From the IMG/VR virus record IMGVR_UViG_3300049927_000161, positions 1-56,239 of that record: a DNA stretch of 56,239 nucleotides, one strand, 5' to 3'. The DNA comes from a virus (lineage: Duplodnaviria; Caudoviricetes). Position 1 is the stretch's first letter. Each line of letters begins with the position of its first letter. The notes below the pieces were generated by a model. The model had not been told where the DNA came from. It searched no databases and saw nothing but the letters and a program-made list of their open reading frames with translations. The position numbers were made by a program, and so were the translations under genes. Shown one piece after another: positions 7,827 through 56,224 of the stretch.

Positions 7827-8123
7827 ATGGAAAAATATAAAATTGTAGGCAGGATCAGTATTCTAACTAATCGTGGAATAGCTAGACAAAATTCTCAATT
7901 CAATAAAGACGCTGTAGATAGTCCAGAAGCCTTAGACCGTTATTTAAAATCTGGAAAGATTGTAAAAATTGTTGAAAGCAAAAATACTGAAAAACAAGTT
8001 GTTAAAGAAACTTTGAAAACTGAAAAACAAGTTATTAAAGAAAATTTGAAAGAAGACAAAGTCGAGACTCCAAAATTGGAACCTCGTTCACAGCTTGGAT
8101 TGCAGAAACAAGACAATAAATAA
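7827..8123 (+). CDS. Hypothetical protein (position of FI-like packaging chaperone)
   Basis: SD GGAG; Lys/Glu-rich tail; follows the capsid gene. Confidence 0.5.
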   Translation: MEKYKIVGRISILTNRGIARQNSQFNKDAVDSPEALDRYLKSGKIVKIVESKNTEKQVVKETLKTEKQVIKENLKEDKVETPKLEPRSQLGLQKQDNK

Positions 8124-8464
8124 TGCCTGGTGAAATTCGCGCCTTAGCCTTGCAAGACTTGACCCAACTCTTACAGACAGAGTTGGGTCAAACTATGAAT
8201 ATCACCAATATGAGCGGTCTAACCGTTCAATTTATTGGTTTGACGAATGATACTTTTCAAGAAGTTGAAACAAACACGCAACGAGCAATGGGAAGAATTA
8301 CTCAAGTTGTTTTAAAGCAAAGTGATTGCATAGCAGCTTTTGGACAAATTCCAGTGCATGGATACAAAGTCGAATTTGTTGATCTTCCCGGACAGACATT
8401 TACTGTAAAATCTTATCGCAAAGACAACACGCTGGGCGTGGCAATTTTAGACGTAGGATTATAA
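8123..8464 (+). CDS. Putative head-tail connector (FII-like)
   Basis: Beta-rich 113 aa; coupled TAATG; synteny. Confidence 0.55.
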   Translation: MPGEIRALALQDLTQLLQTELGQTMNITNMSGLTVQFIGLTNDTFQEVETNTQRAMGRITQVVLKQSDCIAAFGQIPVHGYKVEFVDLPGQTFTVKSYRKDNTLGVAILDVGL

Positions 8465-20177: not shown

Positions 20178-23100
20178 TTAAAAAATACTTTTCATTTTTA
20201 TTAGCTTTTTTATTTTCGTCTATAGCATTATCTGCTCCTGTTCCGCCACAAAATGGCGGTACGGGTGTTAGTAATGATAATGCAAGTACATTAACGATTA
20301 ACGGCGCTCATCCTTCTACTTTCAATATTACTGGCGATACGAATGTGACGTTCCCAACAAGTGGAACACTGGCTACAACTGGAGAAGTTGGAATTGCAAC
20401 TTTGCAGGATGCGTATGATAACGGAACGGATGGCGCATTAGGCTCTATTCTTCTCAACTCAAACAACTTAAATCCGATTGCTACCTTTAACACAAATTTT
20501 TTACTCGATCAGATTCATTACGCATTAGTGAATTATGTTGATCCGAATACTAATACTCCCTCGCCTTGGGGCATTGATTACCGAGCGGTAATTAGTAACG
20601 GAAATATTAAATCATTCGTTCGTATCGAGGCTATTTCACAAACCCAACTTTCTAGCAGTGAAAACGCAGCGCTCTACGTGATAACAAAAAGTTACGGCGC
20701 GGATGTGACAGCATTAAAAATTGATGGGCAAAATCAGTCTATTTCTTCCGCATGGCCGATGAATATTCCAAACGGCGCTCAGGTATTTCAATCGACACAT
20801 TATGTTACTTCTGACCTCTCTTATGACGGTACGCAGATTGGAACAGTTTTCGTTAGTGATGATGTGGCGGATCATACGGCGACAATTCCTGCCTCGTATT
20901 TTAGCACGAACGCGGACGATTCTTTTTCTGTGCAAACTCGTGCAGTACATTCAATTACGCTCTCTCCCACGGGCGGCGCAACGATCAATGGCTCGTCCTC
21001 CGATTTTGTTATTCCAGCAAATTATCGTGCTGTTGCTCAGTTAGTCAATCCTACAAGCAAAGCTTGGGTAGTCACTTTACAAAGCCCATTGGTAGCCACT
21101 AGCGCAAATACTTTTTCAACTATCGTTGCGCGTGATTCGAGTGGTAATTTTTCTGGCGGAACTTTCTCGGGTATTTTAGACGGATATCTCGCCATAAATA
21201 GTACGTCAGTAAACGCAAATATTTATCCCATTTTATCATCGACGAGCAGCGGAAATAATTCTCCTTTTGTTTCGACAAACTATTCTCTAAATCCATCTAC
21301 GGGAGTTTTAAGTGTTACTGGGGCGCATCTTAGCGGCCTAACGGCTTCGAGTTTAGTTGCTACAGACGCAAGCAAAAATCTCGTTTCAACAAATTTGACT
21401 GGCGATGTGACGAGTAGCGCTGCGACAACAACGCTCGCAACTGTTAACTCAAATGTAGGAACTTTTGGAGACGGAACACACTCTTCTCAGGTTACGGTTA
21501 ATGCAAAAGGATTGGTAACGGCTGCATCAAGCGTTGCAATCACGGGCGCGGCTCCTACCGGCGCGGCCAGTGGAGATTTAACGGGAAGTTATCCTTCTCC
21601 CACACTCGCTACTGTTAATAGTAATGTAGGAAGCTGGGGAACTGCATCATCGGTTTCAACAATTACTGTAAACGCTAAAGGTCTAACAATCGCCGCAGCT
21701 AATACGCCGATCCAAATTTCCGAATCACAAGTCACCAATTTGACTACCGATTTAAATTCTAAGTTGAATTTGAGCGGCGGAACGATGACTGGGGATTTAA
21801 TTTTAAACGCCGATCCCACAAGTTCGTCACAAGCTGTCACTAAAAATTACGTCGACTCAATTGCTGCTGGGTTCAACCAATTTGCGGTTGTTGCGGCTTC
21901 TACGGCTAATTTGACAGGTACGTACAACAACGTGTCATCTGGTCTAGGCGCAACATTCACATTGACTGCAACAGGCGCGTTTAGTCTTGATGGACAATCG
22001 GGAATTTTAAATTCTCAATATCTTTTGAAGGATCAAACGAGCAGTCTTGAAAACGGAATTTACAAACTAACTACCATCGGTGATGTTAGCACTCAAGCTG
22101 TGTTAACTCGCTCTATTGATTACGATACTCCCGCACAAATAACTCCCAGCGATATTATCAATGTGGCTGTGGGTTCTGTTAACGGCGGAATAAGTTATTT
22201 ACAGAATGCAACAGTAGCAACAATTGGGCTCGATGCAATTTCATTTTCTCGCTGGGGTGGACAGTCGATGTCCTATGTGGGTGACGTTTCTGGCAGTGGT
22301 TTTTCACCCGTCACTTTATCAATCGGTTCCGCAAAAGTCTCTAATGCGATGCTCGCTGGAAGTATCGACTCTTCAAAATTAATTGGTTCCGACATCACAA
22401 CAGTTGGAACTATTACTAGCGGCACCTGGAGTGGCTCATTCGGGGCTGTTTCCGGCGCGAACTTAACCAGTCTCACTGCTGCAAATATCTCTGCGGGCAC
22501 GGCGGGAATTAATATTTCTGGAAATTCTGCCACGGTTACTACTAACGCAAATTTAACAGGAGACGTGACCAGTGTCGGCAATGCGGCAACTGTTGTTAAA
22601 ATCAACGGTGCGACATTGGGTACTACTACCGCGACGAGTGGAAACGTGCTCATTGGTTCCGGTACTGTTTGGGACACGCACGCCTTGGGCGGTGACATCA
22701 CCATGAATTTGCTCGGTACAACAACTATCGGTACTAACAAAGTTACTTTTGCTAAATTTCAGCAAGTTGGTGCAAGCAATCTCGTGGGCAACGCGACTGG
22801 CTCACTCGCGAATGCTACGGGAATTTCACTCGGTTCTACCCTGACTTTTTCTGGTGCGGCATTACAAACGCTCGCAATTACCGGCGACGTAACATCCTCA
22901 GCAAATAGTTTTTCGACAACGCTTACAGATAATGCCGTCACGCTTGCAAAAATGGCACAGATGTCTACAGCGTCCTTCCTGGGTCGTAATACGGCAAGCA
23001 CTGGTAACGTCGAGGTATTAAGCGAAGCCACAGCAAAAACGATGCTTAATCTAACAGGAACGAATAGCGGCGATGTAACACTAGCAGGACAAAACTACTT

Positions 23101-29139: not shown

Positions 29140-29168
29140 ATTATAACAACAAAATTGTTTGCAAACAA
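29140..29168 (-). promoter_or_regulatory. Promoter with overlapping 14-bp palindrome TTGTTTGCAAACAA (operator candidate)
   Basis: TTGTTT-17-TATAAT with TGn extension; palindrome at 29155-29168. Confidence 0.55.
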
Positions 29169-29174
29169 ATAAGT

Positions 29175-29513
29175 TTAATTAATGGTTATTTTTTTAAAGA
29201 ACTCGTCTATTGTCAACTCGCCGTCAACATTGCGAATACTGAACCACTCGTTTGTATAATAATTGCCCGCGCTGTCAACGATGATGATTTTCATGTTATT
29301 GAACGCAGCTTCGATGATTTCCACTTTAAAACGATAGTCAGGATGTATTTTAGGAAATTTTACACCGTACTCTCCTATTGAAAGAACTATTATTCCTAAC
29401 TCGTCCATTTTTCTAATAAATTCAGACAAAAGAAGTTGGAGTTCGTCTACGCTTTTAAAGTCCCAGTTCTCAATTTTTTGAGCAATTTTTAATAATGCTA
29501 GATTGCGTGCCAT
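29175..29513 (-). CDS. Hypothetical protein
   Basis: SD AGGA; follows the promoter at 29548-29575. Confidence 0.6.
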   Translation of the reverse strand: MARNLALLKIAQKIENWDFKSVDELQLLLSEFIRKMDELGIIVLSIGEYGVKFPKIHPDYRFKVEIIEAAFNNMKIIIVDSAGNYYTNEWFSIRNVDGELTIDEFFKKITIN

Positions 29514-29547: not shown

Positions 29548-29575
29548 ATTATACAATAAACTTATTTATTTGCAA
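29548..29575 (-). promoter_or_regulatory. Sigma70-like promoter (phage early-type motif)
   Basis: TTGCAA-16-TATAAT; spacer nearly identical to that at 50737-50765. Confidence 0.6.
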
Positions 29576-29580
29576 CAAAT

Positions 29581-32415
29581 TTATTTTAGCTCATACTTTG
29601 GATTACCACTCAGCTTAATGTGCCGCTTTATATTGATCTTACGGAAGCCTTGTTGGCTGAATCCTTTGAAAATGTACCAGTCGCCCATCTTACCATTCTC
29701 TAAAATCTGGACGCCAATCTTAGGATAATCAAAGCGGTTCACACCGCAAATCATCTGACTTGTATCGTCTTCAACTGTCAATGAAAGAAATAGATTTTTA
29801 CCGTCCTCAACCCTTACACCACCATGCTTCTCTAAGTTTAAAAGTTCGTTTCTGTCGCGCAAGTTTTTCTCTGTGATCTTTGCTATAAAGCAGAACTCAC
29901 CTATTGATTCGTGTGTAATTTCTTCTAATTTCGTTAGCGGCGTGACAATGTTGTACTTGCTAGGATCTTTAATAATGTGTCCCCAACGATCTTCGCATTC
30001 AAAAATAGAATCATAGGGCGTGACGCCATGTTCCAGTAATTCGTTTTGACGCTTAGTCAGTGGCTTACCTTCCGCACGCTTTTTCAAGATGTCGTTAGCG
30101 GTTTTTTCAGCTATGCCCTTTATTCCTATAAGGCCACCCACGAGCATTCCATTTTGTACAGACCAATTCACTTGCGACAATTCCTTGTCGTACTTCTTAT
30201 ACTTATACCCTGCTTGTTCAAGTTCCCTCAAAATCTTAACGCTTTTTGATGGATCAATGTCGCCATTACGTAAACATGCCGCGCCATACTCAAGCGGAAA
30301 CTTTGCTTTAAGCAACATGCACCAATAACTTATGATGCCATATGCCACGGCGTGGGAACGATTAAACGCCCATGATCCCATCGTGTTAATGTTGTCCCAG
30401 ATGGTTTGTGCTTGTTCCATCGTTAAACCATTCTTCAACGCGCCCACTTTGAATCTTTCAAAGAAGCTATCGAAGAATTCTTTACCAAGACTTTTCGACA
30501 TTGCTTTGCGTAATGAGCTGACGTCTTCCCACGTCAATTCTCCCACTTCCCGCGCTATCTGCATGACCTGTTCTTGGTAAATAACGATTCCATAGGTCAG
30601 TTTAGTAATGTTCTCACAGAGAGGAAGATGCTCTGTTTCATGCTCTTTGTTGCGTCGTTTTAAAAACTCTGACGCGCCGCCGGAAAAAAGTGGTCCGGGT
30701 CTGCCTAAACTGGTTAAGCTAATGACGTCTTCGATGTTGTCAATAACCAATTGTCTACACAGCGACTGAATGCTAAAGCCTTCAAATTGAAATATTCCTG
30801 CAGGGCGACGTTGATTCATCACTTCAAACGCTGACTTGTCGTCTAGTCTGTAATTCAGCAAAGTTTTTAAGTCCCAGTTAACTTGCGCAAGAGTATCGTC
30901 AATAACCGCTAGTGTGGTTAATCCCAGTACGTCAATTTTAAGCAGATTAAGTTCTTCAGCGTCATATTTATCTATCTGTGCCGCGCCAGTTTGTGCGTCC
31001 ACAGAACAATACCAACTCACTGGGTTTTTAGTAATAATGATACCGGCTGCATGTACGCCCGTATGTCTTGCGTGTGCTTCAATTTCTTCACTGACGCGCA
31101 ATTCTGGGTATTTATCAAGAATCTTACGCGCAATTTCAAGACTATCAAACGTGTCTTTGATGCACATTTTAGCGCGTGCATCGCCTGTACTACGGTTAAC
31201 AATTGCGTTCTTAAGTTCGTTAATTTCCCATAGAGGAATCTTAAGTTCCCGCGCAACGTCTGTAATTGTTACTTTGGCTTGATAACGTGACACAGTGCCG
31301 AGTCGCGCAACGCAATTCGCGCCATATTTTTGTTGGAGATAACTGAAAATCATATCTCTCTTATTATCTGGAAAATCGATGTCGATATCGGGAAGGTCTT
31401 TTCGATTAATGTCGATAAATCGCTCAAACAATAAATCATAAGGAATTGGATCAATTTCAGTGATAGACAATAAGTAGCAAACAAGAGAACCGCACGACGA
31501 ACCTCTGGCAGGACCGACAAGCATGTATTGCTTAGCATATAGGCATAAATCAGAAACAACATAAAAATAATCCTCAAAGTTTTTTTCAGCTATTAACGCT
31601 AATTCACGGTCTAATCTATCCATGTAGACTTTATTTGTTAAATCAATATTGCGTGCGGGGGCGGCGTCAATACACGTTTGACGCAATGACTTCTCCTTGA
31701 CAGGTTCTACAATCTCAGCTTTGGGCAGTTCTGCATTGCATTCTTCAGCGATCCTGTAAGTTGTCGCAATAGCATGATGATTATCACAATAGAGTTTCCA
31801 TTCGTCTTCGCTTAATATGTGCATAGGGCTTGAGCGCAACTCTTTATTTCTGCCAGCAACAATTTCATAAGCATTGCGATCACTTGGCTTAGGATAGTAA
31901 TTATCACTTACTGCAACAACAGCAATTTTTAATTTACTAATCAATTCAATGTCGTTTGGAGTTGTAGACGGAGACATTCCATAATAAACATTATGACGCT
32001 TGGCCAACGATTTAAATTCTTTTGTTTCGTCAAGATTACTTAAAATAATAAACACATTGTCGCTAACATTTTTAACGATGGAAAAATCAATACGAGGAAA
32101 ATAATAAAATTTCTCAGTCGCTATGGAAACTAACTCATAAATTTCCCTTAGCCCATCATTGTTTTTGGCTAAAAAACTCACGTACCTAACACCCTGCTTC
32201 TCCCGCAAGTTAGCATCGTCAACCCAAGCCAATTCCACACCAAAGATCGGCTTGACACCATTCCTCTTGCAAAGCTTTTGCCACGCAACATGTCCCCACG
32301 TTCCCTTGCGGTCGCAGATAGCGGCGGCGGATCCATGATTAGCAGCTAGGACATTTTCAATTTTCCCGTAGGCGCAACCAAAACTGTACTCTGTGCGGTT
32401 CTTTAAATTAATCAT
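29581..32415 (-). CDS. dnaE: DNA polymerase III alpha subunit (family C)
   Basis: PHP domain (RTEYSF, KPIFGVE), GPARGS, LLFERF, PDIDIDF, HAAG, KIDVLG, GIFQFE, YQEQVM, FNRSHA; ATGA overlap at 32412-32415. Confidence 0.96.
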   Translation of the reverse strand: MINLKNRTEYSFGCAYGKIENVLAANHGSAAAICDRKGTWGHVAWQKLCKRNGVKPIFGVELAWVDDANLREKQGVRYVSFLAKNNDGLREIYELVSIATEKFYYFPRIDFSIVKNVSDNVFIILSNLDETKEFKSLAKRHNVYYGMSPSTTPNDIELISKLKIAVVAVSDNYYPKPSDRNAYEIVAGRNKELRSSPMHILSEDEWKLYCDNHHAIATTYRIAEECNAELPKAEIVEPVKEKSLRQTCIDAAPARNIDLTNKVYMDRLDRELALIAEKNFEDYFYVVSDLCLYAKQYMLVGPARGSSCGSLVCYLLSITEIDPIPYDLLFERFIDINRKDLPDIDIDFPDNKRDMIFSYLQQKYGANCVARLGTVSRYQAKVTITDVARELKIPLWEINELKNAIVNRSTGDARAKMCIKDTFDSLEIARKILDKYPELRVSEEIEAHARHTGVHAAGIIITKNPVSWYCSVDAQTGAAQIDKYDAEELNLLKIDVLGLTTLAVIDDTLAQVNWDLKTLLNYRLDDKSAFEVMNQRRPAGIFQFEGFSIQSLCRQLVIDNIEDVISLTSLGRPGPLFSGGASEFLKRRNKEHETEHLPLCENITKLTYGIVIYQEQVMQIAREVGELTWEDVSSLRKAMSKSLGKEFFDSFFERFKVGALKNGLTMEQAQTIWDNINTMGSWAFNRSHAVAYGIISYWCMLLKAKFPLEYGAACLRNGDIDPSKSVKILRELEQAGYKYKKYDKELSQVNWSVQNGMLVGGLIGIKGIAEKTANDILKKRAEGKPLTKRQNELLEHGVTPYDSIFECEDRWGHIIKDPSKYNIVTPLTKLEEITHESIGEFCFIAKITEKNLRDRNELLNLEKHGGVRVEDGKNLFLSLTVEDDTSQMICGVNRFDYPKIGVQILENGKMGDWYIFKGFSQQGFRKINIKRHIKLSGNPKYELK

Positions 32416-43189: not shown

Positions 43190-43558
43190 ATGCTTAACAA
43201 TTCAATGACATTATTCGGTAACAATTCAAATACTGGTATTATTCCACACGCAACGGAAAGTGACGCAATCTACATTATATACGCTGTCGGCGGACTTATC
43301 GGATTGGGCGTCGTCGTTACGTGTTGCATACTGTGCTATCTCAATTTCTGTCAACGAGTGAACGACGAAACTATTATTCCAGCCAGTAGATCATTAACGC
43401 CAGAAGAGGAAGAAGACATAAATTTGAATTACTCAAATATGATTGACGGAACGTCTGAAATTCCACTCGGCGCATTAACAAGCAGTGATGAATTATTGCA
43501 TACGCCCTACGAGAGCGATGTTGAGATGTACGATAATTTACATGTTAGCTTTGGTTAA
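43190..43558 (+). CDS. Single-pass membrane protein with juxtamembrane Cys and acidic Tyr-motif tail
   Basis: TM helix AIYIIYAVGGLIGLGVVVTCCILCYL; own SD AAAAGGA; candidate promoter TTGTAT(43127)-17-TAAAAT(43150). Confidence 0.7.
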   Translation: MLNNSMTLFGNNSNTGIIPHATESDAIYIIYAVGGLIGLGVVVTCCILCYLNFCQRVNDETIIPASRSLTPEEEEDINLNYSNMIDGTSEIPLGALTSSDELLHTPYESDVEMYDNLHVSFG

Positions 43559-44030
43559 TTTTTTTTGCTAAAACATACCCATTCTTTAAAAGATTGACCA
43601 GTATCATTCCCAGTAGATTAACTAGGATCGGATTATGGTGAACTTCAAGGAATGGGCTTTTTAATACTTCGCCTTTTGAATTTTGGTTGTAGGGCGTATT
43701 AGGATTTTCAAAAAAATCATTTTCAAATACCGCACCATACTTACCATTTTCTTCTTTATAAATTCTTAATGACATACGATCAATTTTTAGTGGAATCAAG
43801 TGAAAAATTTCTGCCAAGGTATACGCTGAATAAACAGAAAGTATCTTAATTTCTGCGTCCTTTTCAGCTTCAAAAATTCCCCCTTTACACATGATTTCCT
43901 GCTCTGTGTCGCCGTCTTCTAGATACTTAATTTCTACATGATAATACCAAGATTCTTGACGCACTCCAAGACGGCGAAGTTCTTTTGAAATATAAAGATT
44001 TGTTCTTTCTTCTTCACTTTGTAAAATCAT
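43545..44030 (-). CDS. Hypothetical phage protein
   Basis: SKELRRLGV.QES and SAYTLAEI..LIP motifs common in phage early genes. Confidence 0.7.
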   Translation of the reverse strand: MILQSEEERTNLYISKELRRLGVRQESWYYHVEIKYLEDGDTEQEIMCKGGIFEAEKDAEIKILSVYSAYTLAEIFHLIPLKIDRMSLRIYKEENGKYGAVFENDFFENPNTPYNQNSKGEVLKSPFLEVHHNPILVNLLGMILVNLLKNGYVLAKKINQS

Positions 44031-44203: not shown

Positions 44204-44447
44204 TTTTACTTTCCTCTTCACAAATTTGACACCACACGGCGTGAACTTTAATGGAATAACTGTAACGATGATACGCGCCGGTTATTCCATTAAAATCAAC
44301 TTCTATTCTTTTAGCCAAACCTTTTCTAATTAAAATTCCAGCGGAATATGGCGGAACTTGACTGTCATTGCTGCAAATTTTATCTAACGCTCTGCGGCAC
44401 GGTCTGGAGAGTTCTTTGATTGTTTTATAAATTTCTTCAGGCGTCAT
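44196..44447 (-). CDS. Hypothetical protein (possible winged helix)
   Basis: LS...RRAL...LIRKGLA. Confidence 0.55.
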   Translation of the reverse strand: MTPEEIYKTIKELSRPCRRALDKICSNDSQVPPYSAGILIRKGLAKRIEVDFNGITGAYHRYSYSIKVHAVWCQICEEESKNE

Positions 44448-50736: not shown

Positions 50737-50765
50737 ATTGTAGCAATAAACTTATTTGTTTGCAA
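50737..50765 (-). promoter_or_regulatory. Sigma70-like early promoter
   Basis: TTGCAA-17-TACAAT with TGn extended -10. Confidence 0.7.
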
Positions 50766-50770
50766 CAATT

Positions 50771-51010
50771 TTATTTCGTTAAAACCTTAAGATCTCTTTG
50801 CTGAGCAAGCCATATCACGTCCAGCAAGCATTCAATGGGAATAATATGTGTAGTGGTGTTACGCTGCTTTTCCTTTTTTGAATGCTCTTGTTCAGCTTCT
50901 TTTGTGAGGAACTTATGGGTGGCTTCATATAAATCACACGTGTTTTTTATTTTTGTATATGTCCACATAAAGCCTTTTTTCTCATTCATTATTTTAACGG
51001 ATTTATACAT
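50771..51010 (-). CDS. Paralog of the C-terminal domain of 51003-52154
   Basis: WTYT...DLYEATHKFL; SD AAGGAG before ATG 51010. Confidence 0.6.
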   Translation of the reverse strand: MYKSVKIMNEKKGFMWTYTKIKNTCDLYEATHKFLTKEAEQEHSKKEKQRNTTTHIIPIECLLDVIWLAQQRDLKVLTK

Positions 51011-52154
51011 TGTTTGCTCCTTGTTGAACTTCATAGCCGCTTGCGTGCGCATTATCAATAAGTATTCTTAGTTCTTCACTTGTAACGTGTTCACTTGCAA
51101 ACACCCACTTGTCCTCAGAAACTTTTTCTTCAAACTCTGCCTTCTTTTGCTCACACAGCCACTCATGCGTTTCTTCATAAAGATCTTCACTGTATTGCGT
51201 ATATGTCCACGCGTCGCCACAATCTTCTCTGACGATTCTAAAAATTTTCATTGACTTTTTAATGTATTTTTCAACGTATGTCGCCCTGCCCTTAATCTTT
51301 GGCATATATTTAAGGGGAAAATGGTTAATCATTTCATAGCCTTCAACAATACAACCAACTTTAGGCTCAAATCTAGATTTTATCCACACAGTGTGCTGGT
51401 CTTCTAGCCGGACATGATAAATTGAATATCGTTTATTAACTCGGCGTGCTAAAAATTTGGAAGTCCGTGCGCGTTTCTTGAAGGAAATTATGTCTTCTTC
51501 GTTCATGATTGATTCATACTCAATTATTTTTACTTCAAAATCACTATCTTTGACAATATCAATCAACTGCTGAGAAACTTTAAGCCGAAAAACAGCTCCT
51601 TCTCTGACTTCTGTTGACCAGTTTTTCATTGAGCCGCCGCTCGTTACTTTGCCGCTTAACAGAGCAACGTCTTCACACACTTTTGCGCCAGAATCACGGC
51701 CAAAGGCGCGAGCCAGTGGATAACCTGCAAACGTGACCGCGTCCTTGCCCGTGTAAGTATTTTTAGTCGCAATCAGGTCAACTGTTCTGACGTTTGAATT
51801 GTATTTAAAGTCCAATTCTTCAACCGCGTCTTCAACTATTTTGGGGAAAACCCACACTTTTGCATCAGCGTCCCAACGACCGCCAAGGTTTTGACAAGAA
51901 GCAACAAGCCACTCATTGTATCTATGCTTAAGCGTAACAACGCCTTGATCTTTGACTTCAGACTCTAATTCATAGATAACATCAACGCCGTATTTGGATC
52001 TTACTGAAATATCATTAACAAGGAGTTCTTGTTCGCCTAACGACAAATTTTCGCTTTTTGGAGTGACTTTGAGTTTGACTTCATAACCCTGTTCGTTTGT
52101 GCATTTAAAATAAACGCGGTTCTTTTTGATGACGTTTAATTTGAGAGTTTTCAT
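51003..52154 (-). CDS. Multi-domain hypothetical phage protein
   Basis: LGGRWD....WVF, ARAFGRDSGA, SGGSMKNW motifs; first gene after the promoter at 52195-52223. Confidence 0.75.
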   Translation of the reverse strand: MKTLKLNVIKKNRVYFKCTNEQGYEVKLKVTPKSENLSLGEQELLVNDISVRSKYGVDVIYELESEVKDQGVVTLKHRYNEWLVASCQNLGGRWDADAKVWVFPKIVEDAVEELDFKYNSNVRTVDLIATKNTYTGKDAVTFAGYPLARAFGRDSGAKVCEDVALLSGKVTSGGSMKNWSTEVREGAVFRLKVSQQLIDIVKDSDFEVKIIEYESIMNEEDIISFKKRARTSKFLARRVNKRYSIYHVRLEDQHTVWIKSRFEPKVGCIVEGYEMINHFPLKYMPKIKGRATYVEKYIKKSMKIFRIVREDCGDAWTYTQYSEDLYEETHEWLCEQKKAEFEEKVSEDKWVFASEHVTSEELRILIDNAHASGYEVQQGANNV

Positions 52155-52194
52155 ACTTTATATCCTTTTATATATGGCTTACTGCCATGCGAGT

Positions 52195-52223
52195 ATAATA
52201 ACAATAAATAAGTTTGTTTGCAA
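52195..52223 (-). promoter_or_regulatory. Sigma70-like early promoter
   Basis: TTGCAA-17-TATTAT with TGn extension; shares the TTGTTTGCAACAA motif. Confidence 0.65.
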
Positions 52224-52260
52224 CAAGTTTATTTAACTGGTTTGCACATTATTAATAAGG

Positions 52261-52393
52261 TGGTAGTAGGCAAGATTTTACTTGCTAGGAATGCGTTACA
52301 ACGGCTGTCGTGTGGGGCGACCGTATCATTCCGAGTTATAGCTCTCCACTTGAAACATTTCCACCTGCGTTTCTATCAACGCCGCTACTACCA
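52261..52393 (-). ncRNA. tRNA-like RNA 1 (acceptor, D-arm, large insert, T-arm)
   Basis: Acceptor GTAGTAG/CTACTAC, D-arm GCGT-TGATAGAA-ACGC, T-arm GCAAG-TAAAAT-CTTGC. Confidence 0.65.
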
Positions 52394-52538
52394 TAAATTG
52401 CCTTTTGCTTTAACGTGCAAGTTTGTATGATTGCGCATCATGGTGGAAAAATTCGGCTAGCTCCAATTACTCAAGGAGAAAGGCTACCTACACCGCCCAA
52501 CGCTAAAGCCATATAAAAATATTGTTCCTTATCAATGT

Positions 52539-52720
52539 TCTTATTGAGTAACAACAAGTGGAATCAAACCACATTGCGCCTCATAACCTCTACGGTAAAG
52601 CATCACCCTTGTGGGCTACCAACAGCCAGCTTTTCGCTTAGTCGGGTCACGGGATTAGACCTGCAATCCTACCGACACTGCCTGACTTACTCACAGTCAC
52701 GTTGTTGCCACTCAATAAGA
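52539..52720 (-). ncRNA. tRNA-like RNA 2 with multi-hairpin insert
   Basis: Closing stem TCTTATTGAGT/ACTCAATAAGA plus GCAACAA/TTGTTGT; D-like TGACT/AGTCA; T-arm GTGG-TTTGATT-CCAC. Confidence 0.65.
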
Positions 52721-52936
52721 TCACTCAATCGTTGCTTGATCTTTTAAAAATTTCTCACAATATTTCATTAGTTTACTTAAAACTTCATCGGACAGATAGA
52801 TAACTTCTGGATCGGCTTCTTCAAAAGTATCCGTCGACAATACCATGTGAAAAGAATCGCAATCATAATAAATATTTACGTCTTCCCCAAGAAATTCCTT
52901 TTTAGAGTATATTTCTTTAAATTCTTGACGGTTCAT
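52721..52936 (-). CDS. Hypothetical protein, paralog of the 49184 C-terminal domain
   Basis: EFLGEDVNIYYD...IYLSDEVLSKLMKY; SD AGGAG. Confidence 0.65.
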   Translation of the reverse strand: MNRQEFKEIYSKKEFLGEDVNIYYDCDSFHMVLSTDTFEEADPEVIYLSDEVLSKLMKYCEKFLKDQATIE

Positions 52937-52957
52937 TGTTTGCTCCTATTCAATAAT

Positions 52958-53109
52958 CATAGCGCGTTCCGTCCCCGGATCGAACGGGTCTCTCCTGTCG
53001 GTCAGGTGAAGTTAAGTTTTTCAAACGGCGCGTCCGCCAATTTACTCACGCTTAACTGATCCAGTAATTAACTGGCACTGTTTCCACTACACCACCGGAA
53101 CGCGCGATG
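52958..53109 (-). ncRNA. tRNA-like RNA 3 with ~70-nt expanded variable region
   Basis: Acceptor GTTCCG/CGGAAC (extended by GCGC), D region TGGTGTAGTGGAAACA, arm CCAG-TTAATTA-CTGG, T-arm CCCG-TTCGATC-CGGG. Confidence 0.75.
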
Positions 53110-53110
53110 G

Positions 53111-53665
53111 TTACTTAAATAAATGGTATATTTCAGTCCTTATTTTTTTTAGTTCAGATTCTATTGCGCCTAATGATGCCCTTTCGTCCATGGATAAATC
53201 AAGCGGAGTACTCATTCTTGGGCTAGCAGCAATAATCTTATATCCGTGAATATCAAGTTCTTGTATCTTTTTCATTAGCGCAATGTAGCGTTCTGCACGC
53301 TCGCCCAACTCTGGCATGACGTCCTCATTTTTAAGCCAAAAGCTGACGTGGCAAAAACGCCAACTGACACACAGAATCTCGGCTTGCTCGGGCGTTACTT
53401 TACACAGCGTTTTAAAGCGTAGGTCACACGCCTTATTATAATCTTTAAAGGCTTCAACGTCGCCCATCATGTGCAATACGCCACCACCAAACATTTTAAC
53501 GGTACGCGGCACGGTCATTTTTAACTTTTCAGCGTAGGGCTTTATAAAGAATTTATGGAGTTCTTCGCGGCGTGGGTAAGGCGTGCCTGTGCTTGCGTCT
53601 ACCCATACGCCTTCTTGCTTTTGTGGGTCTTCGGCTTTTAAAAACCAGTCTACGAAGTTTTTCAT
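53111..53665 (-). CDS. Hypothetical protein
   Basis: ATGA-coupled; SD AAGGA. Confidence 0.7.
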   Translation of the reverse strand: MKNFVDWFLKAEDPQKQEGVWVDASTGTPYPRREELHKFFIKPYAEKLKMTVPRTVKMFGGGVLHMMGDVEAFKDYNKACDLRFKTLCKVTPEQAEILCVSWRFCHVSFWLKNEDVMPELGERAERYIALMKKIQELDIHGYKIIAASPRMSTPLDLSMDERASLGAIESELKKIRTEIYHLFK

Positions 53666-55272: not shown

Positions 55273-55384
55273 CAAATTAATGTACTGAGTATAATAAATA
55301 CTGTACATTATTAATGCAAGAGTAGTGTAAAATTAATGCAAGAGTTAGTGTTAACTTTGAACATTTGTTTACAATTTAGGCAAT

Positions 55385-55706
55385 TTGCCTCACTTGCCTC
55401 ACTCTGCCTCACTTGTACAAAAAATATCAGGCAAAAAAACTGTAGTAGAAACAAGGATGCCTCACTTGCCTCACTTGCCTCACTTATTTTTTAATAATAA
55501 TAATAATAATAATAATAAAGGAAGGAGTGTGGTGTGGCTGGCTAACGCTTCCCCTGTGTGAGTGTGAGGCATGAGGCATGACGACGTGGCTCTTCCTGGG
55601 CGATAACCCAAAAAGGGGTGAGGCAAGTGAGGCAAGTGAGGCACCGTTGTTTCTACTGAAGTTTTTTCGAGGTCGAAGTGAGGCAAGTAGTGAGGCAAGT
55701 GAGGCA
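55385..55706. repeat. Inverted iteron array (TGCCTCAC / GTGAGGCA) around an AT-rich core; putative replication origin
   Basis: 6 forward copies (55386-55483), (TAA)9 at 55492-55518, and 7 full plus 1 partial inverted copies (55564-55706). Confidence 0.8.
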
Positions 55707-56224
55707 AAACGGTAATTTTTGAACACTTGCTAGAAACTCTCAATAACAAGGCGTTATTGAGTAAGACAATACTACAACAAGTATTTATTTAACACAAATA
55801 GTAATATTTATTTTACATTTAAGTGCAATATTCTCCTTATAAACTATTTACTTCTACGTATGTATGTGCTAGCTATAACAAATAGAACATTAATAATACA
55901 AATATAGTGCATTAATAATACAATTGTACATAAATAATATATATATATAGTATATCAAATGTACAATATGTACATATAATAAACTAGAGCACACTTTTAA
56001 TCATATTGCAATACACAAATAATATACATATGACACAATAATATACACATGAAAGAATAATACACTATCTACAACACGTTAAATTTGTCCTACATTAAGC
56101 GATAATTTTAGACGTAAAAAAATATAGAAGACACAGAGATCGTTGCACAGTGAGGCTGTGCTGCTACCACAGTGGCATTTCTACGCTGATCAATTAAGGT
56201 ACTGCTGACCGAATTTTGACCGGC

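What the first reader, a model, noticed from the sequence alone, without database searches (positions are those of the whole stretch)
52539..52720. Second tRNA-like RNA: long closing helix, T-loop and ~110-nt structured insert
Seen (minus strand): an 11-bp perfect outer stem TCTTATTGAGT/ACTCAATAAGA continuing into GCAACAA/TTGTTGT; a D-like hairpin TGACT-gtgagta-AGTCA; internal hairpins GTCGG..GGATT/AATCC..CCGAC, AGC-gaaaa-GCT and GGCT-gttggt-AGCC; and a T-arm GTGG-TTTGATT-CCAC directly before the 3' acceptor strand. The region is more GC-rich than its flanks, has no credible minus-strand ORF, and starts immediately after the stop of 52721-52936. Inference: same architecture as RNA 3 with unrelated primary sequence, which suggests selection on shape.
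Basis: partly seen in the sequence, partly recalled or inferred. Interest (0 to 1): 0.75.

Follow-up and report, generated by a model that had tools for sequence, protein, structure and literature searches.

The report
Orphan structured RNA in phage operon
A 182-base non-coding stretch in the early-gene operon of an uncultured soil phage folds into a branched RNA closed by an unusually long helix, but it is not a recognisable tRNA and has no relatives anywhere we could search, so its function remains an inference.

Summary
On the minus strand, 52539-52720 forms a 19-pair uninterrupted closing helix (17 Watson-Crick, 2 G-U). Inside are several hairpins, and a 4-bp/7-nt-loop hairpin abuts the 3' strand. 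MFE is -66.2 kcal/mol, z -4.31, with 0 of 200 shuffles as stable. It lies in the largest non-coding gap of a tightly packed early operon.

Thermodynamic stability alone is ordinary here: rank 34 of 131 loci with z <= -3. The long-range helix is what stands out.

The tRNA reading is weakly supported. ARAGORN and Rfam find nothing, the T-loop has U where tRNA has C56, and there is no GG D-loop.

"Selection on shape" could not be tested. No homologue was found in phage, plasmid, IMG/VR, metagenome or read collections. The flanking 71-aa and 184-aa ORFs are also orphans. Models of this RNA and of "RNA 3" do not hit each other.

Best guess (0.4): an autonomous RNA domain of the early transcript, excised or processed through its long duplex, with a tRNA-minihelix-like end. 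This is an unclassified candidate of moderate interest.

The parts
52539..52720 (-). The candidate structured RNA domain (182 nt)
   Evidence: MFE -66.2 kcal/mol, z -4.31. It folds identically as an independent domain when the whole 571-nt gap is folded.
52702..52720 (-). 5' strand of the 19-pair closing helix. It starts one base after the TGA stop of ORF 52721-52936.
   Evidence: inverted repeat I9; p 0.96.
52539..52557 (-). 3' strand of the closing helix
52683..52699 (-). 5'-proximal hairpin TGACT-GTGAGTA-AGTCA (5 bp, 7-nt loop).
   Evidence: Pair probability 0.89.
52641..52676 (-). Compound hairpin GTCGG..GGATTG/TAATCC..CCGAC
   Evidence: Inner helix p 0.78. Outer helix p about 0.4 with a competing pairing.
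52614..52638 (-). Small hairpins AGC-GAAAA-GCT and GGCT-GTTGGT-AGCC
   Evidence: The first has p 0.79. The second is present in the sequence but absent from the MFE and MEA folds.
52573..52613 (-). About 40 nt with no well-determined fold
   Evidence: All candidate pairs have p < 0.5.
52558..52572 (-). T-arm-like hairpin GTGG-TTTGATT-CCAC, directly abutting the 3' strand
   Evidence: p 0.96. The relaxed motif GGTTYRANYCC matches once in the window, here, where 0.41 matches are expected by chance.
52721..52936 (-). 71-aa ORF between the two structured RNAs. It has AGGAG 7 nt before its ATG and is an orphan.
   Evidence: HMMER against 1.84 billion representatives finds only itself.
52955..53110 (-). 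Neighbouring element 'RNA 3'. It has a 10-pair perfect closing helix (23 nt at 83% with the extension), a canonical TTCGATC T-loop and an AGTGG D-loop-like segment.
   Evidence: z -3.29. Inverted repeat I10. ARAGORN with introns at a 95% threshold calls tRNA-Ser(act) with a 45-nt intron at 52964-53101.
52195..52223 (-). Promoter-like site TTGCAA-17-TATTAT (TG-extended) ahead of the 383-aa gene. The structured RNA would therefore lie at the 3' end of the upstream transcription unit.
   Evidence: The TTGCAAACAAA motif recurs at 29159 (+) and 50765 (-).
52224..52538 (-). Remaining non-coding spacer. It contains a weaker domain closed by GGTAGTAG/CTACTACC (52262-52392).
   Evidence: z -1.86, 8 of 200 shuffles as stable, so not significant.

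Best explanation
An orphan, autonomously folding RNA domain within the early polycistronic transcript of a lytic myovirus-like phage. It is transcribed from the minus strand together with the 71-aa ORF that ends one base before it. Its ends form a duplex of 19 pairs (23 with one interruption), and this duplex closes a multi-branched core. The last hairpin of the core stacks on the duplex like a tRNA T-arm on an acceptor stem.

Inferred mechanism:
- The long duplex is a substrate for a double-strand-specific endonuclease (host RNase III).
- Cutting both strands would release a stable RNA of about 140-180 nt and define the 3' end of the upstream message, ahead of the next promoter at 52223-52195.
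- The T-arm/helix stack may in addition attract tRNA-processing or tRNA-modifying enzymes.

What is shown: the fold, its strand bias, its placement and its uniqueness. What is inferred: transcription, cleavage and any trans-acting role.
For: - Fold: z -4.31 with 0 of 200 shuffles. The same structure appears when the whole 571-nt gap is folded.
- Strand bias: the opposite strand gives z -2.95. Both non-Watson-Crick positions in the 19-pair helix are G-U on the minus strand, which would be A-C mismatches on the plus strand. Minus is the coding strand of all neighbouring genes.
- Helix length: it is the longest uninterrupted long-range helix in the window outside the 55.4-55.7 kb repeat array.
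- Placement: the gaps of 566 nt (52155-52720) and 174 nt (52937-53110) are the two largest in an operon whose genes otherwise overlap or sit mostly within 150 nt of each other. The one other gap above 150 nt, 271 nt, lies at the repeat region near 55.1 kb. Each of the two large gaps holds an element with a long closing helix (I9 and I10).
- Both helices reach into the stop codon of the ORF upstream.
- No minus-strand ORF of 30 aa or more. The plus-strand ORF has no homologue.
- A promoter-like site follows downstream.
Against: - No homologue was found, so there is no covariation support at all.
- The z-score is ordinary for this window: rank 34 of 131 loci, many of them inside coding regions.
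- About 40 nt of the core has no defined fold.
- Folded as DNA, both strands also beat shuffles (z -3.35 and -3.66), so a DNA-level inverted repeat is not excluded.
- There is no expression evidence.
- No terminator-like or promoter-like signal defines the RNA's own ends.
- RNase III cleavage is assumed from helix length only.
Confidence: 0.4

Rival explanations
1. A true tRNA mimic or tRNA-derived RNA with a ~110-nt insert. Under this reading the acceptor-like GCAACAA/TTGTTGT, the T-arm and a D-like hairpin rebuild a tRNA elbow. The RNA is then handled by RNase P/Z, CCA-adding or modification enzymes, or acts as a decoy for tRNA-targeting host nucleases.
For: - The T-arm-like hairpin abuts the 3' strand exactly as in tRNA, and it matches the T-arm motif GGTTCRANYCC (quoted in passages of PMC1920247) at 10 of 11 positions.
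- The D-like loop has GA where tRNA has G18G19 and the T-loop has U where tRNA has C56, so an A-U pair could replace the G19-C56 pair (inference).
- The neighbour RNA 3 is much more tRNA-like: TTCGATC loop, AGTGG segment, and an ARAGORN call at a 95% threshold.
Against: - ARAGORN at default finds 0 genes. Rfam gives no tRNA, tmRNA or other credible hit even at E <= 10.
- The relaxed ARAGORN call at 80% comes with 5 other calls in the same 1.5 kb and disappears at 90%.
- Even the 95% intron setting gives 3 calls in 6 phage records, about 313 kb in all, which is roughly noise level.
- No U8, no A14, no GG in the D-like loop, no encoded CCA.
- The 'acceptor' is buried in a 19-pair duplex, leaving no free 5' leader for RNase P.
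- The relaxed T-arm motif alone is expected 0.41 times per window.
- A 20-nt T-arm/acceptor string of RNA 3 hit 4 places in the genome collection, none in a tRNA gene.
Confidence: 0.2
2. A neutral or decaying leftover: a chance or relict inverted repeat in junk spacer DNA of a fast-evolving early region, with no function as RNA.
For: - The whole block is orphan. The 71-aa ORF and the 184-aa ORF match only themselves, and the RNA has no relative.
- The z-score is unremarkable for the window.
- The rest of the spacer folds no better than chance (z -1.86).
- Part of the core is unstructured.
Against: - By my own rough estimate, 19 uninterrupted pairs with only two wobbles at 100-260 nt span would be expected about 0.005-0.1 times per window. 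The observed counts of shorter helices fit chance, this one does not.
- Both wobbles are on the transcribed strand.
- A second element of the same kind lies 215 nt away.
- Phage early operons with overlapping genes rarely keep 566 nt of junk (the generalisation is background knowledge).
Confidence: 0.22
3. A DNA-level element: paired binding sites for a regulator or recombinase, a cruciform or single-strand initiation signal, or the terminal inverted repeats of a dead miniature transposable element.
For: - A 22-nt inverted repeat at 86%.
- DNA-parameter folds beat shuffles on both strands (z -3.35 and -3.66).
- Both repeats (I9 and I10) overlap the stop codon of the gene upstream. An inserted element that supplied a new stop codon could produce that pattern.
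Against: - There is only one copy in the record and no other copy in the window by model R1.
- No similar DNA in the phage or plasmid collections.
- No target-site duplication is visible at the ends.
- No transposase, integrase or reverse transcriptase was seen among the genes annotated.
- The internal hairpins and the wobble pattern are not explained by a DNA site.
Confidence: 0.13
4. The region codes for protein: either the plus-strand 70-aa ORF 52535-52747 or an unrecognised minus-strand gene.
For: An open plus-strand frame of 70 aa exists.
Against: - No homologue among 5.8 billion clustered proteins and no PHROG.
- The ORF runs antisense to a uniformly minus-strand operon.
- No minus-strand ORF of 30 aa or more in 52155-52720.
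Confidence: 0.03

Closest known systems
t-elements of plant mitochondria (tRNA-like processing signals inside mRNAs)
   Same: Both are non-canonical tRNA-like folds embedded between coding regions of a polycistronic transcript, recognised through a T-arm plus acceptor-like stem. In plant mitochondria their cleavage by RNase P/Z creates mRNA ends and a small stable RNA (passages of PMC1920247).
   Different: t-elements are about 74 nt and cloverleaf-like, with a conserved GGTTCRANYCC arm. The element here is 182 nt with a ~110-nt multi-hairpin insert, a U at the C56 position, and an acceptor-like stem extended to 19 pairs with no free leader. It is in a phage, not an organelle, and no ends have been mapped.
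RNase III excision helices (rRNA precursor stems; phage T7 early intercistronic R sites). Recalled from general knowledge, not from a call.
   Same: A duplex of about two helical turns formed by sequences flanking a structured RNA or lying between cistrons. Cleavage separates messages and leaves stabilising 3' hairpins.
   Different: T7 sites are simple ~60-nt irregular hairpins and rRNA stems enclose kilobase RNAs. This helix encloses a 144-nt branched core. No cleavage data exist, and the host, and so its RNase III, is unknown.
Phage T4 stable RNAs C and D
   Same: Small phage-encoded RNAs of still unknown function (passages of PMC9697503). That they lie in the tRNA gene region and have paired ends is my recollection only.
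   Different: T4 RNAs C and D are classed as late RNAs in that paper, whereas this element sits in an apparent early operon.
Bacterial/phage Y RNAs (YrlA, Yrn1)
   Same: The 5' and 3' ends pair in a long stem and the rest contains T-arm- and D-arm-like hairpins. Some are encoded by phages (passages of PMC4201824).
   Different: In YrlA the order is T-arm, acceptor-like hairpin, then D-arm, and the RNA lies next to a Ro60/TROVE gene. The window has no TROVE gene and no Rfam hit. The GNCGAAN0-1G motif is absent from the sequence (read).

Membership tests
tRNA | Cloverleaf recognised by tRNA detectors | tested here: not met
   ARAGORN at default finds 0 genes in the window. Rfam finds nothing at gathering score and no tRNA hit at E <= 10. 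ARAGORN with introns makes a call only at the 80% threshold, among 6 calls in 1.5 kb, and none at 90%.
tRNA | T-loop T54-Psi55-C56-R57-A58 closed by G53-C61 | tested here: inconclusive
   The loop is TTTGATT closed by G-C. Positions 54, 55, 57 and 58 fit, but position 56 is U, not C.
tRNA | D-arm with A14, G18G19, A21, and U8 before it | tested here: not met
   The hairpin has a 5-bp stem and loop GTGAGTA, with no GG. It is preceded by CG, not U8.
tRNA | 7-bp acceptor stem with free ends, discriminator base and CCA | tested here: not met
   The acceptor-like 7 bp continue without a break into 12 more pairs. No CCA is encoded.
tmRNA | tRNA-like domain plus tag reading frame | tested here: not met
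   ARAGORN tmRNA search finds nothing, also at the 80% threshold. No Rfam hit.
Y RNA / YrlA | Adjacent Ro60 (TROVE) gene | tested here: not met
   PF05731 matches 0 times in the record at E <= 1, while the control genomes do match. The record is estimated 81% complete.
Y RNA / YrlA | Match to the family model and the GNCGAAN0-1G motif | tested here: not met
   No Rfam hit. The motif, as given in PMC4201824, is not in the sequence.
Plant-mitochondrial-type t-element | T-arm motif GGTTCRANYCC within a foldable tRNA-like unit | tested here: inconclusive
   10 of 11 positions match (C to T at one). The relaxed motif has a single match in the window, where 0.41 are expected by chance.
Plant-mitochondrial-type t-element | Transcript ends coincide with the element's ends (RNase P/Z cleavage) | not testable with these tools
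   No RNA run holds the sequence.
RNase III processing site | Duplex of about 20 bp or more | tested here: met
   19 uninterrupted pairs, 23 with one 1x1 loop.
RNase III processing site | Staggered cleavage of both strands | not testable with these tools
   Needs an enzyme assay or end mapping.
Retron non-coding RNA | Inverted repeats a1/a2 next to a reverse transcriptase gene | tested here: not met
   PF00078 matches 0 times in the record. The neighbouring proteins have no credible Pfam family.
Miniature inverted-repeat transposable element | Several copies and target-site duplication | tested here: not met
   One copy in the record. No similar DNA elsewhere. No duplication is seen at the ends.
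Any Rfam 15 family | Score at or above the gathering threshold | tested here: not met
   0 matches in the whole window. The 5 sub-threshold matches in 51900-53400 are all at E >= 1.4, and none lies within the element; two lap its 3' edge by 6 and 15 nt.

The most novel reading that the evidence does not exclude
This RNA and its neighbour RNA 3 are a pair of a new class of phage RNAs. In this reading they are tRNA-derived cores that have grown large inserts and long leader-trailer duplexes. They would be cut out of the early message by RNase III and act in trans as tRNA mimics, for example as decoys that soak up host tRNA-cleaving defence nucleases or tRNA-modifying enzymes early in infection.
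Probability: 0.1. Interest if true: 0.7.

Novelty: new variant of a known kind. Interest (0 to 1): 0.35.

Why it matters
If the element is real and processed as proposed, it would show that double-stranded-DNA phages use tRNA-like or minihelix-capped structured domains with rRNA-style excision helices to punctuate early operons or to make stable small RNAs. Such an arrangement is documented for organelles and for T7-type RNase III sites, but not in this combined form. If it is a trans-acting tRNA mimic, it would bear on the arms race around tRNA-targeting defence systems. As it stands it is a single-sequence candidate. Its main value is as a flagged locus to revisit when relatives or transcriptomes appear.

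Tried and rejected
Searches for similar DNA
- blastn (distant mode) of the region against 50,697 phage records and 72,556 plasmids: no match.
- Exact 21-mer of the T-arm plus 3' strand in IMG/VR: 0 matches.

Relatives found by protein anchors
- DnaE-type polymerase: 80 loci, best 57% identity.
- Large terminase: 19 loci, best 44%.
- The five closest records share only the replication module at 25-43 kb, not the early region. blastn of 52155-53110 in them gives only 14-18-nt matches at E >= 0.076.
- The 383-aa downstream protein has 104 hits including itself; its N-terminal ~212 aa has relatives up to 61% identical. An alignment of these fetched 42 viral loci and 32 metagenome loci. None carries the RNA or any other neighbouring gene.
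- Single-protein scans with the 383-aa and 184-aa proteins gave one weak locus each.

Covariance-model searches
- Model R1, built from the single sequence:
  - 50 polymerase-related records: 1 of 50 at E <= 1, a 32-nt hairpin of 9.9 bits, not credible.
  - 36 further records: 0 of 36; L108 was not held and not searched.
  - 45 sources including the window: only itself at 238 bits.
  - 32 metagenome loci: one 9.7-bit hairpin.
- Loop-anchored pattern TGTGAGTAA-N(102-132)-GTTTGATTC in IMG/VR: 33 stretches, about the number I estimated for chance. R1 scores none credibly. The one with an identical 15-nt T-arm (L233) lies inside a 98-aa ORF and has no closing helix.
- Model R2 of RNA 3: 0 of 50 records; in 43 sources only itself.

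Other checks
- A 20-mer of RNA 3's T-arm plus acceptor in 185,579 species genomes: 4 matches, none in a tRNA gene.
- Sequencing runs: no RNA holder listed. The single DNA holder may be the source sample. Laying it gave one identical contig and no variants, so there is no population-level covariation.
- Antisense targets: no complementarity of 13 nt or more to either strand of the window. Two 12-mers, which is about chance by my estimate.
- A fixed-grid MFE scan was out of register with the element and is not used.
- The third domain 52262-52392 is not significant.
- Relaxed ARAGORN calls are rejected as noise.

Tools that could not be used
- Supplements of the papers cited were not opened.

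Full report
**Context**

The window is a single IMG/VR virus record of 56,239 bases, linear, estimated 81% complete. It encodes a large terminase, portal, major head protein, tail sheath and tape measure. It also encodes a DnaE-type polymerase, helicases and a primase.

It therefore looks like a lytic myovirus-type phage. No integrase, reverse transcriptase or Ro60 gene was seen. The only public run holding the sequence is a soil metagenome that may be its own source.

From about 43.5 to 55 kb all genes run on the minus strand. They are small, mostly preceded by AGGAG-like sites, and mostly overlap or lie a few bases apart. Within this block the two largest non-coding gaps are 52155-52720 (566 nt) and 52937-53110 (174 nt). 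The finding occupies the upstream 182 nt of the first gap. "RNA 3" fills the second. A 71-aa ORF lies between them.

**The observation**

Partition-function probabilities:

| Feature | Probability |
|---|---|
| Closing helix, 19 uninterrupted pairs, two of them G-U | 0.96 |
| Hairpin GTGG-TTTGATT-CCAC | 0.96 |
| Hairpin TGACT-GTGAGTA-AGTCA | 0.89 |
| AGC-GAAAA-GCT | 0.79 |
| GGATTG/TAATCC | 0.78 |
| GTCGG/CCGAC | about 0.4 |

GGCT/AGCC is not in the best folds, and roughly 40 nt (RNA positions 108-148) are undetermined.

RNALfold extends the closing helix by four pairs across a 1x1 loop, to 52533-52725. This takes in two bases of the TGA stop of the upstream ORF. The domain folds the same way when the whole 571-nt gap is folded.

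**Is it more than chance?**

- The shuffle test gives z -4.31 with 0 of 200 shuffles as stable on the minus strand. The plus strand gives z -2.95 with 2 of 200.
- A z-score scan of the whole window on both strands is a necessary caution. There are 440 local folds at z <= -3, in 131 non-overlapping loci. This locus (z -4.12) is 85th and 34th respectively, behind many folds inside coding regions. Thermodynamic stability alone would not single it out.
- The long-range helix does. Outside the repeat array at 55.38-55.71 kb, no other uninterrupted helix with an outer span of 100-260 nt reaches 19 pairs, and the next is 17. Helices of 14-17 pairs occur about as often as a simple pairing-probability estimate predicts (my estimate).
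- A T-loop-like hairpin flush against a long-range helix of 10 or more pairs occurs once in the window. It occurs six times, with 10-12-pair helices, in 2.09 Mb of other fetched phage and metagenome DNA. That descriptor was written post hoc.
- Both non-Watson-Crick positions of the helix are G-U on the minus strand, the transcribed strand of the operon, and would be A-C on the other. This is modest evidence that the pairing matters in RNA rather than DNA.
- Against that, DNA-parameter folds of both strands also beat shuffles (z -3.35 and -3.66).

**Is it a tRNA-like RNA?**

- ARAGORN at default finds no tRNA or tmRNA in the window.
- Rfam 15 has no match at gathering score in the window. At E <= 10 in 51900-53400 there are five sub-threshold matches, all at E >= 1.4; none lies within the element, and two lap its 3' edge by 6 and 15 nt.
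- With introns allowed, ARAGORN calls the element "tRNA-Ile with an 89-nt intron" only at an 80% threshold, where it makes six calls in 1.5 kb. It makes none at 90%.
- The T-loop has U in place of C56. The 5' hairpin has neither A14 nor GG, U8 is absent, no CCA is encoded, and the 7-bp acceptor-like segment is buried in a 19-pair duplex.
- What remains tRNA-like is the coaxial arrangement of a 4-bp T-arm on a helix. The hairpin matches the plant t-element T-arm motif GGTTCRANYCC (PMC1920247, passages) at 10 of 11 positions. A GA in the 5' loop could pair with UU in the T-loop in place of G18G19 with Psi55-C56, which is inference.
- The relaxed motif by itself is expected 0.41 times per window.
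- RNA 3 is clearly more tRNA-like: a TTCGATC loop closed by G-C, an AGTGG segment, and an ARAGORN call at a 95% threshold with a 45-nt intron. That setting, however, yields 3 calls in 6 phage records.
- A 20-nt string of RNA 3's T-arm and acceptor matches no tRNA gene in 185,579 species genomes.
- Covariance models of the two RNAs do not find each other. "Same architecture" is a description, not a measured similarity.

**Relatives**

None was found. In brief:

- No similar DNA in the phage or plasmid collections.
- The closest phages by polymerase (57%) and by terminase (44%) share only the replication module.
- 74 loci carrying homologues of the downstream gene lack the RNA and all other neighbouring genes.
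- 86 whole viral records were negative for model R1.
- A loop-anchored pattern scan of IMG/VR gave 33 chance-level hits.
- The 71-aa and 184-aa flanking ORFs match only themselves.
- The one holding run shows a single identical contig.

Covariation, the test that would decide "selection on shape", therefore could not be run.

**Mechanism**

I commit to the following, at about 0.4.

- The element is a self-contained RNA domain of the early transcript.
- Its duplex of 19 (23) pairs is long enough for RNase III. This is general knowledge of the enzyme's substrates, and no assay was done.
- Cutting it would free a branched RNA of about 140-180 nt and end the upstream message. This lies some 300 nt ahead of a promoter-like site (TTGCAA-17-TATTAT, 52223-52195). 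The core motif of that site recurs at two other places in the window.
- The same logic applies to RNA 3, whose 3' arm ends one base before the AGGAG of the 71-aa ORF.
- Because both helices overlap the upstream stop codons, terminating ribosomes would transiently open them. That could couple processing to translation, which is inference.
- Whether the released RNA acts in trans is open. I found no antisense target in the phage.

**Comparison with known systems**

The nearest functional analogues are:

- Plant-mitochondrial t-elements.
- RNase III excision helices of rRNA precursors and T7 early messages (recalled).
- T4 RNAs C and D, which are still of unknown function.
- Y RNAs.

The element fails the tested defining features of tRNA, tmRNA, YrlA, retron RNA and MITEs. 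It meets only the helix-length criterion of an RNase III site.

**Verdict**

This is a real and non-random sequence feature, most likely a structured RNA, but a single-sequence orphan. The tRNA-like label is weak, and its evolutionary conservation could not be tested. Interest is moderate to low until relatives or transcripts are available.

Noticed in passing
window 52955-53110 (-): 'RNA 3' fills the 174-nt gap upstream of the 71-aa ORF. It has a 10-pair perfect closing helix (23 nt at 83% with extension), a canonical TTCGATC T-loop and an AGTGG D-loop-like segment; z is -3.29. ARAGORN calls it tRNA-Ser(act) with a 45-nt intron at a 95% threshold. It has no Rfam hit and no homologue (model R2).
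   Followed up: partly
window 55384-55708: A dense array of direct and inverted copies of TGCCTCACT-type repeats forms the most stable fold in the window (z about -11). It may be an origin, a regulatory region or a terminal region.
   Followed up: no
window 52195-52223 (-), 50747-50765 (-), 29159-29177 (+), 29557-29582: A motif around TTGCAAACAAA recurs ahead of genes. At 52223 it forms TTGCAA-17-TATTAT with a TG extension. These sites may be phage middle promoters or operator sites.
   Followed up: partly
window 52721-52729 and 52709-52716 (-): ATTGAGTG occurs twice, 5 nt apart: once as the last codons plus stop of the 71-aa ORF, and once inside the 5' strand of the closing helix. The 3' strand could therefore pair with either copy, giving an alternative register.
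   Followed up: no
window 51003-52154 (-): The N-terminal ~212 aa of the 383-aa protein belong to a widespread family of unknown function. Members are stand-alone 211-258-aa proteins up to 61% identical, including ones in Vibrio genomes and on 43-57 kb metagenome contigs. The C-terminal half appears to be an addition.
   Followed up: partly
window 8040-8360, 43489-43709, 44243-44297, 20225-20284: Several loci fold better against the z-score model than the finding does (z -5.9 to -6.2). Most lie in or at the edges of coding regions.
   Followed up: no
window 52262-52392 (-): A third possible domain in the same gap is closed by GGTAGTAG/CTACTACC, with a hairpin GCAAG-TAAAAT-CTTGC flush against its 3' strand. 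The layout is the same, but z is only -1.86.
   Followed up: yes
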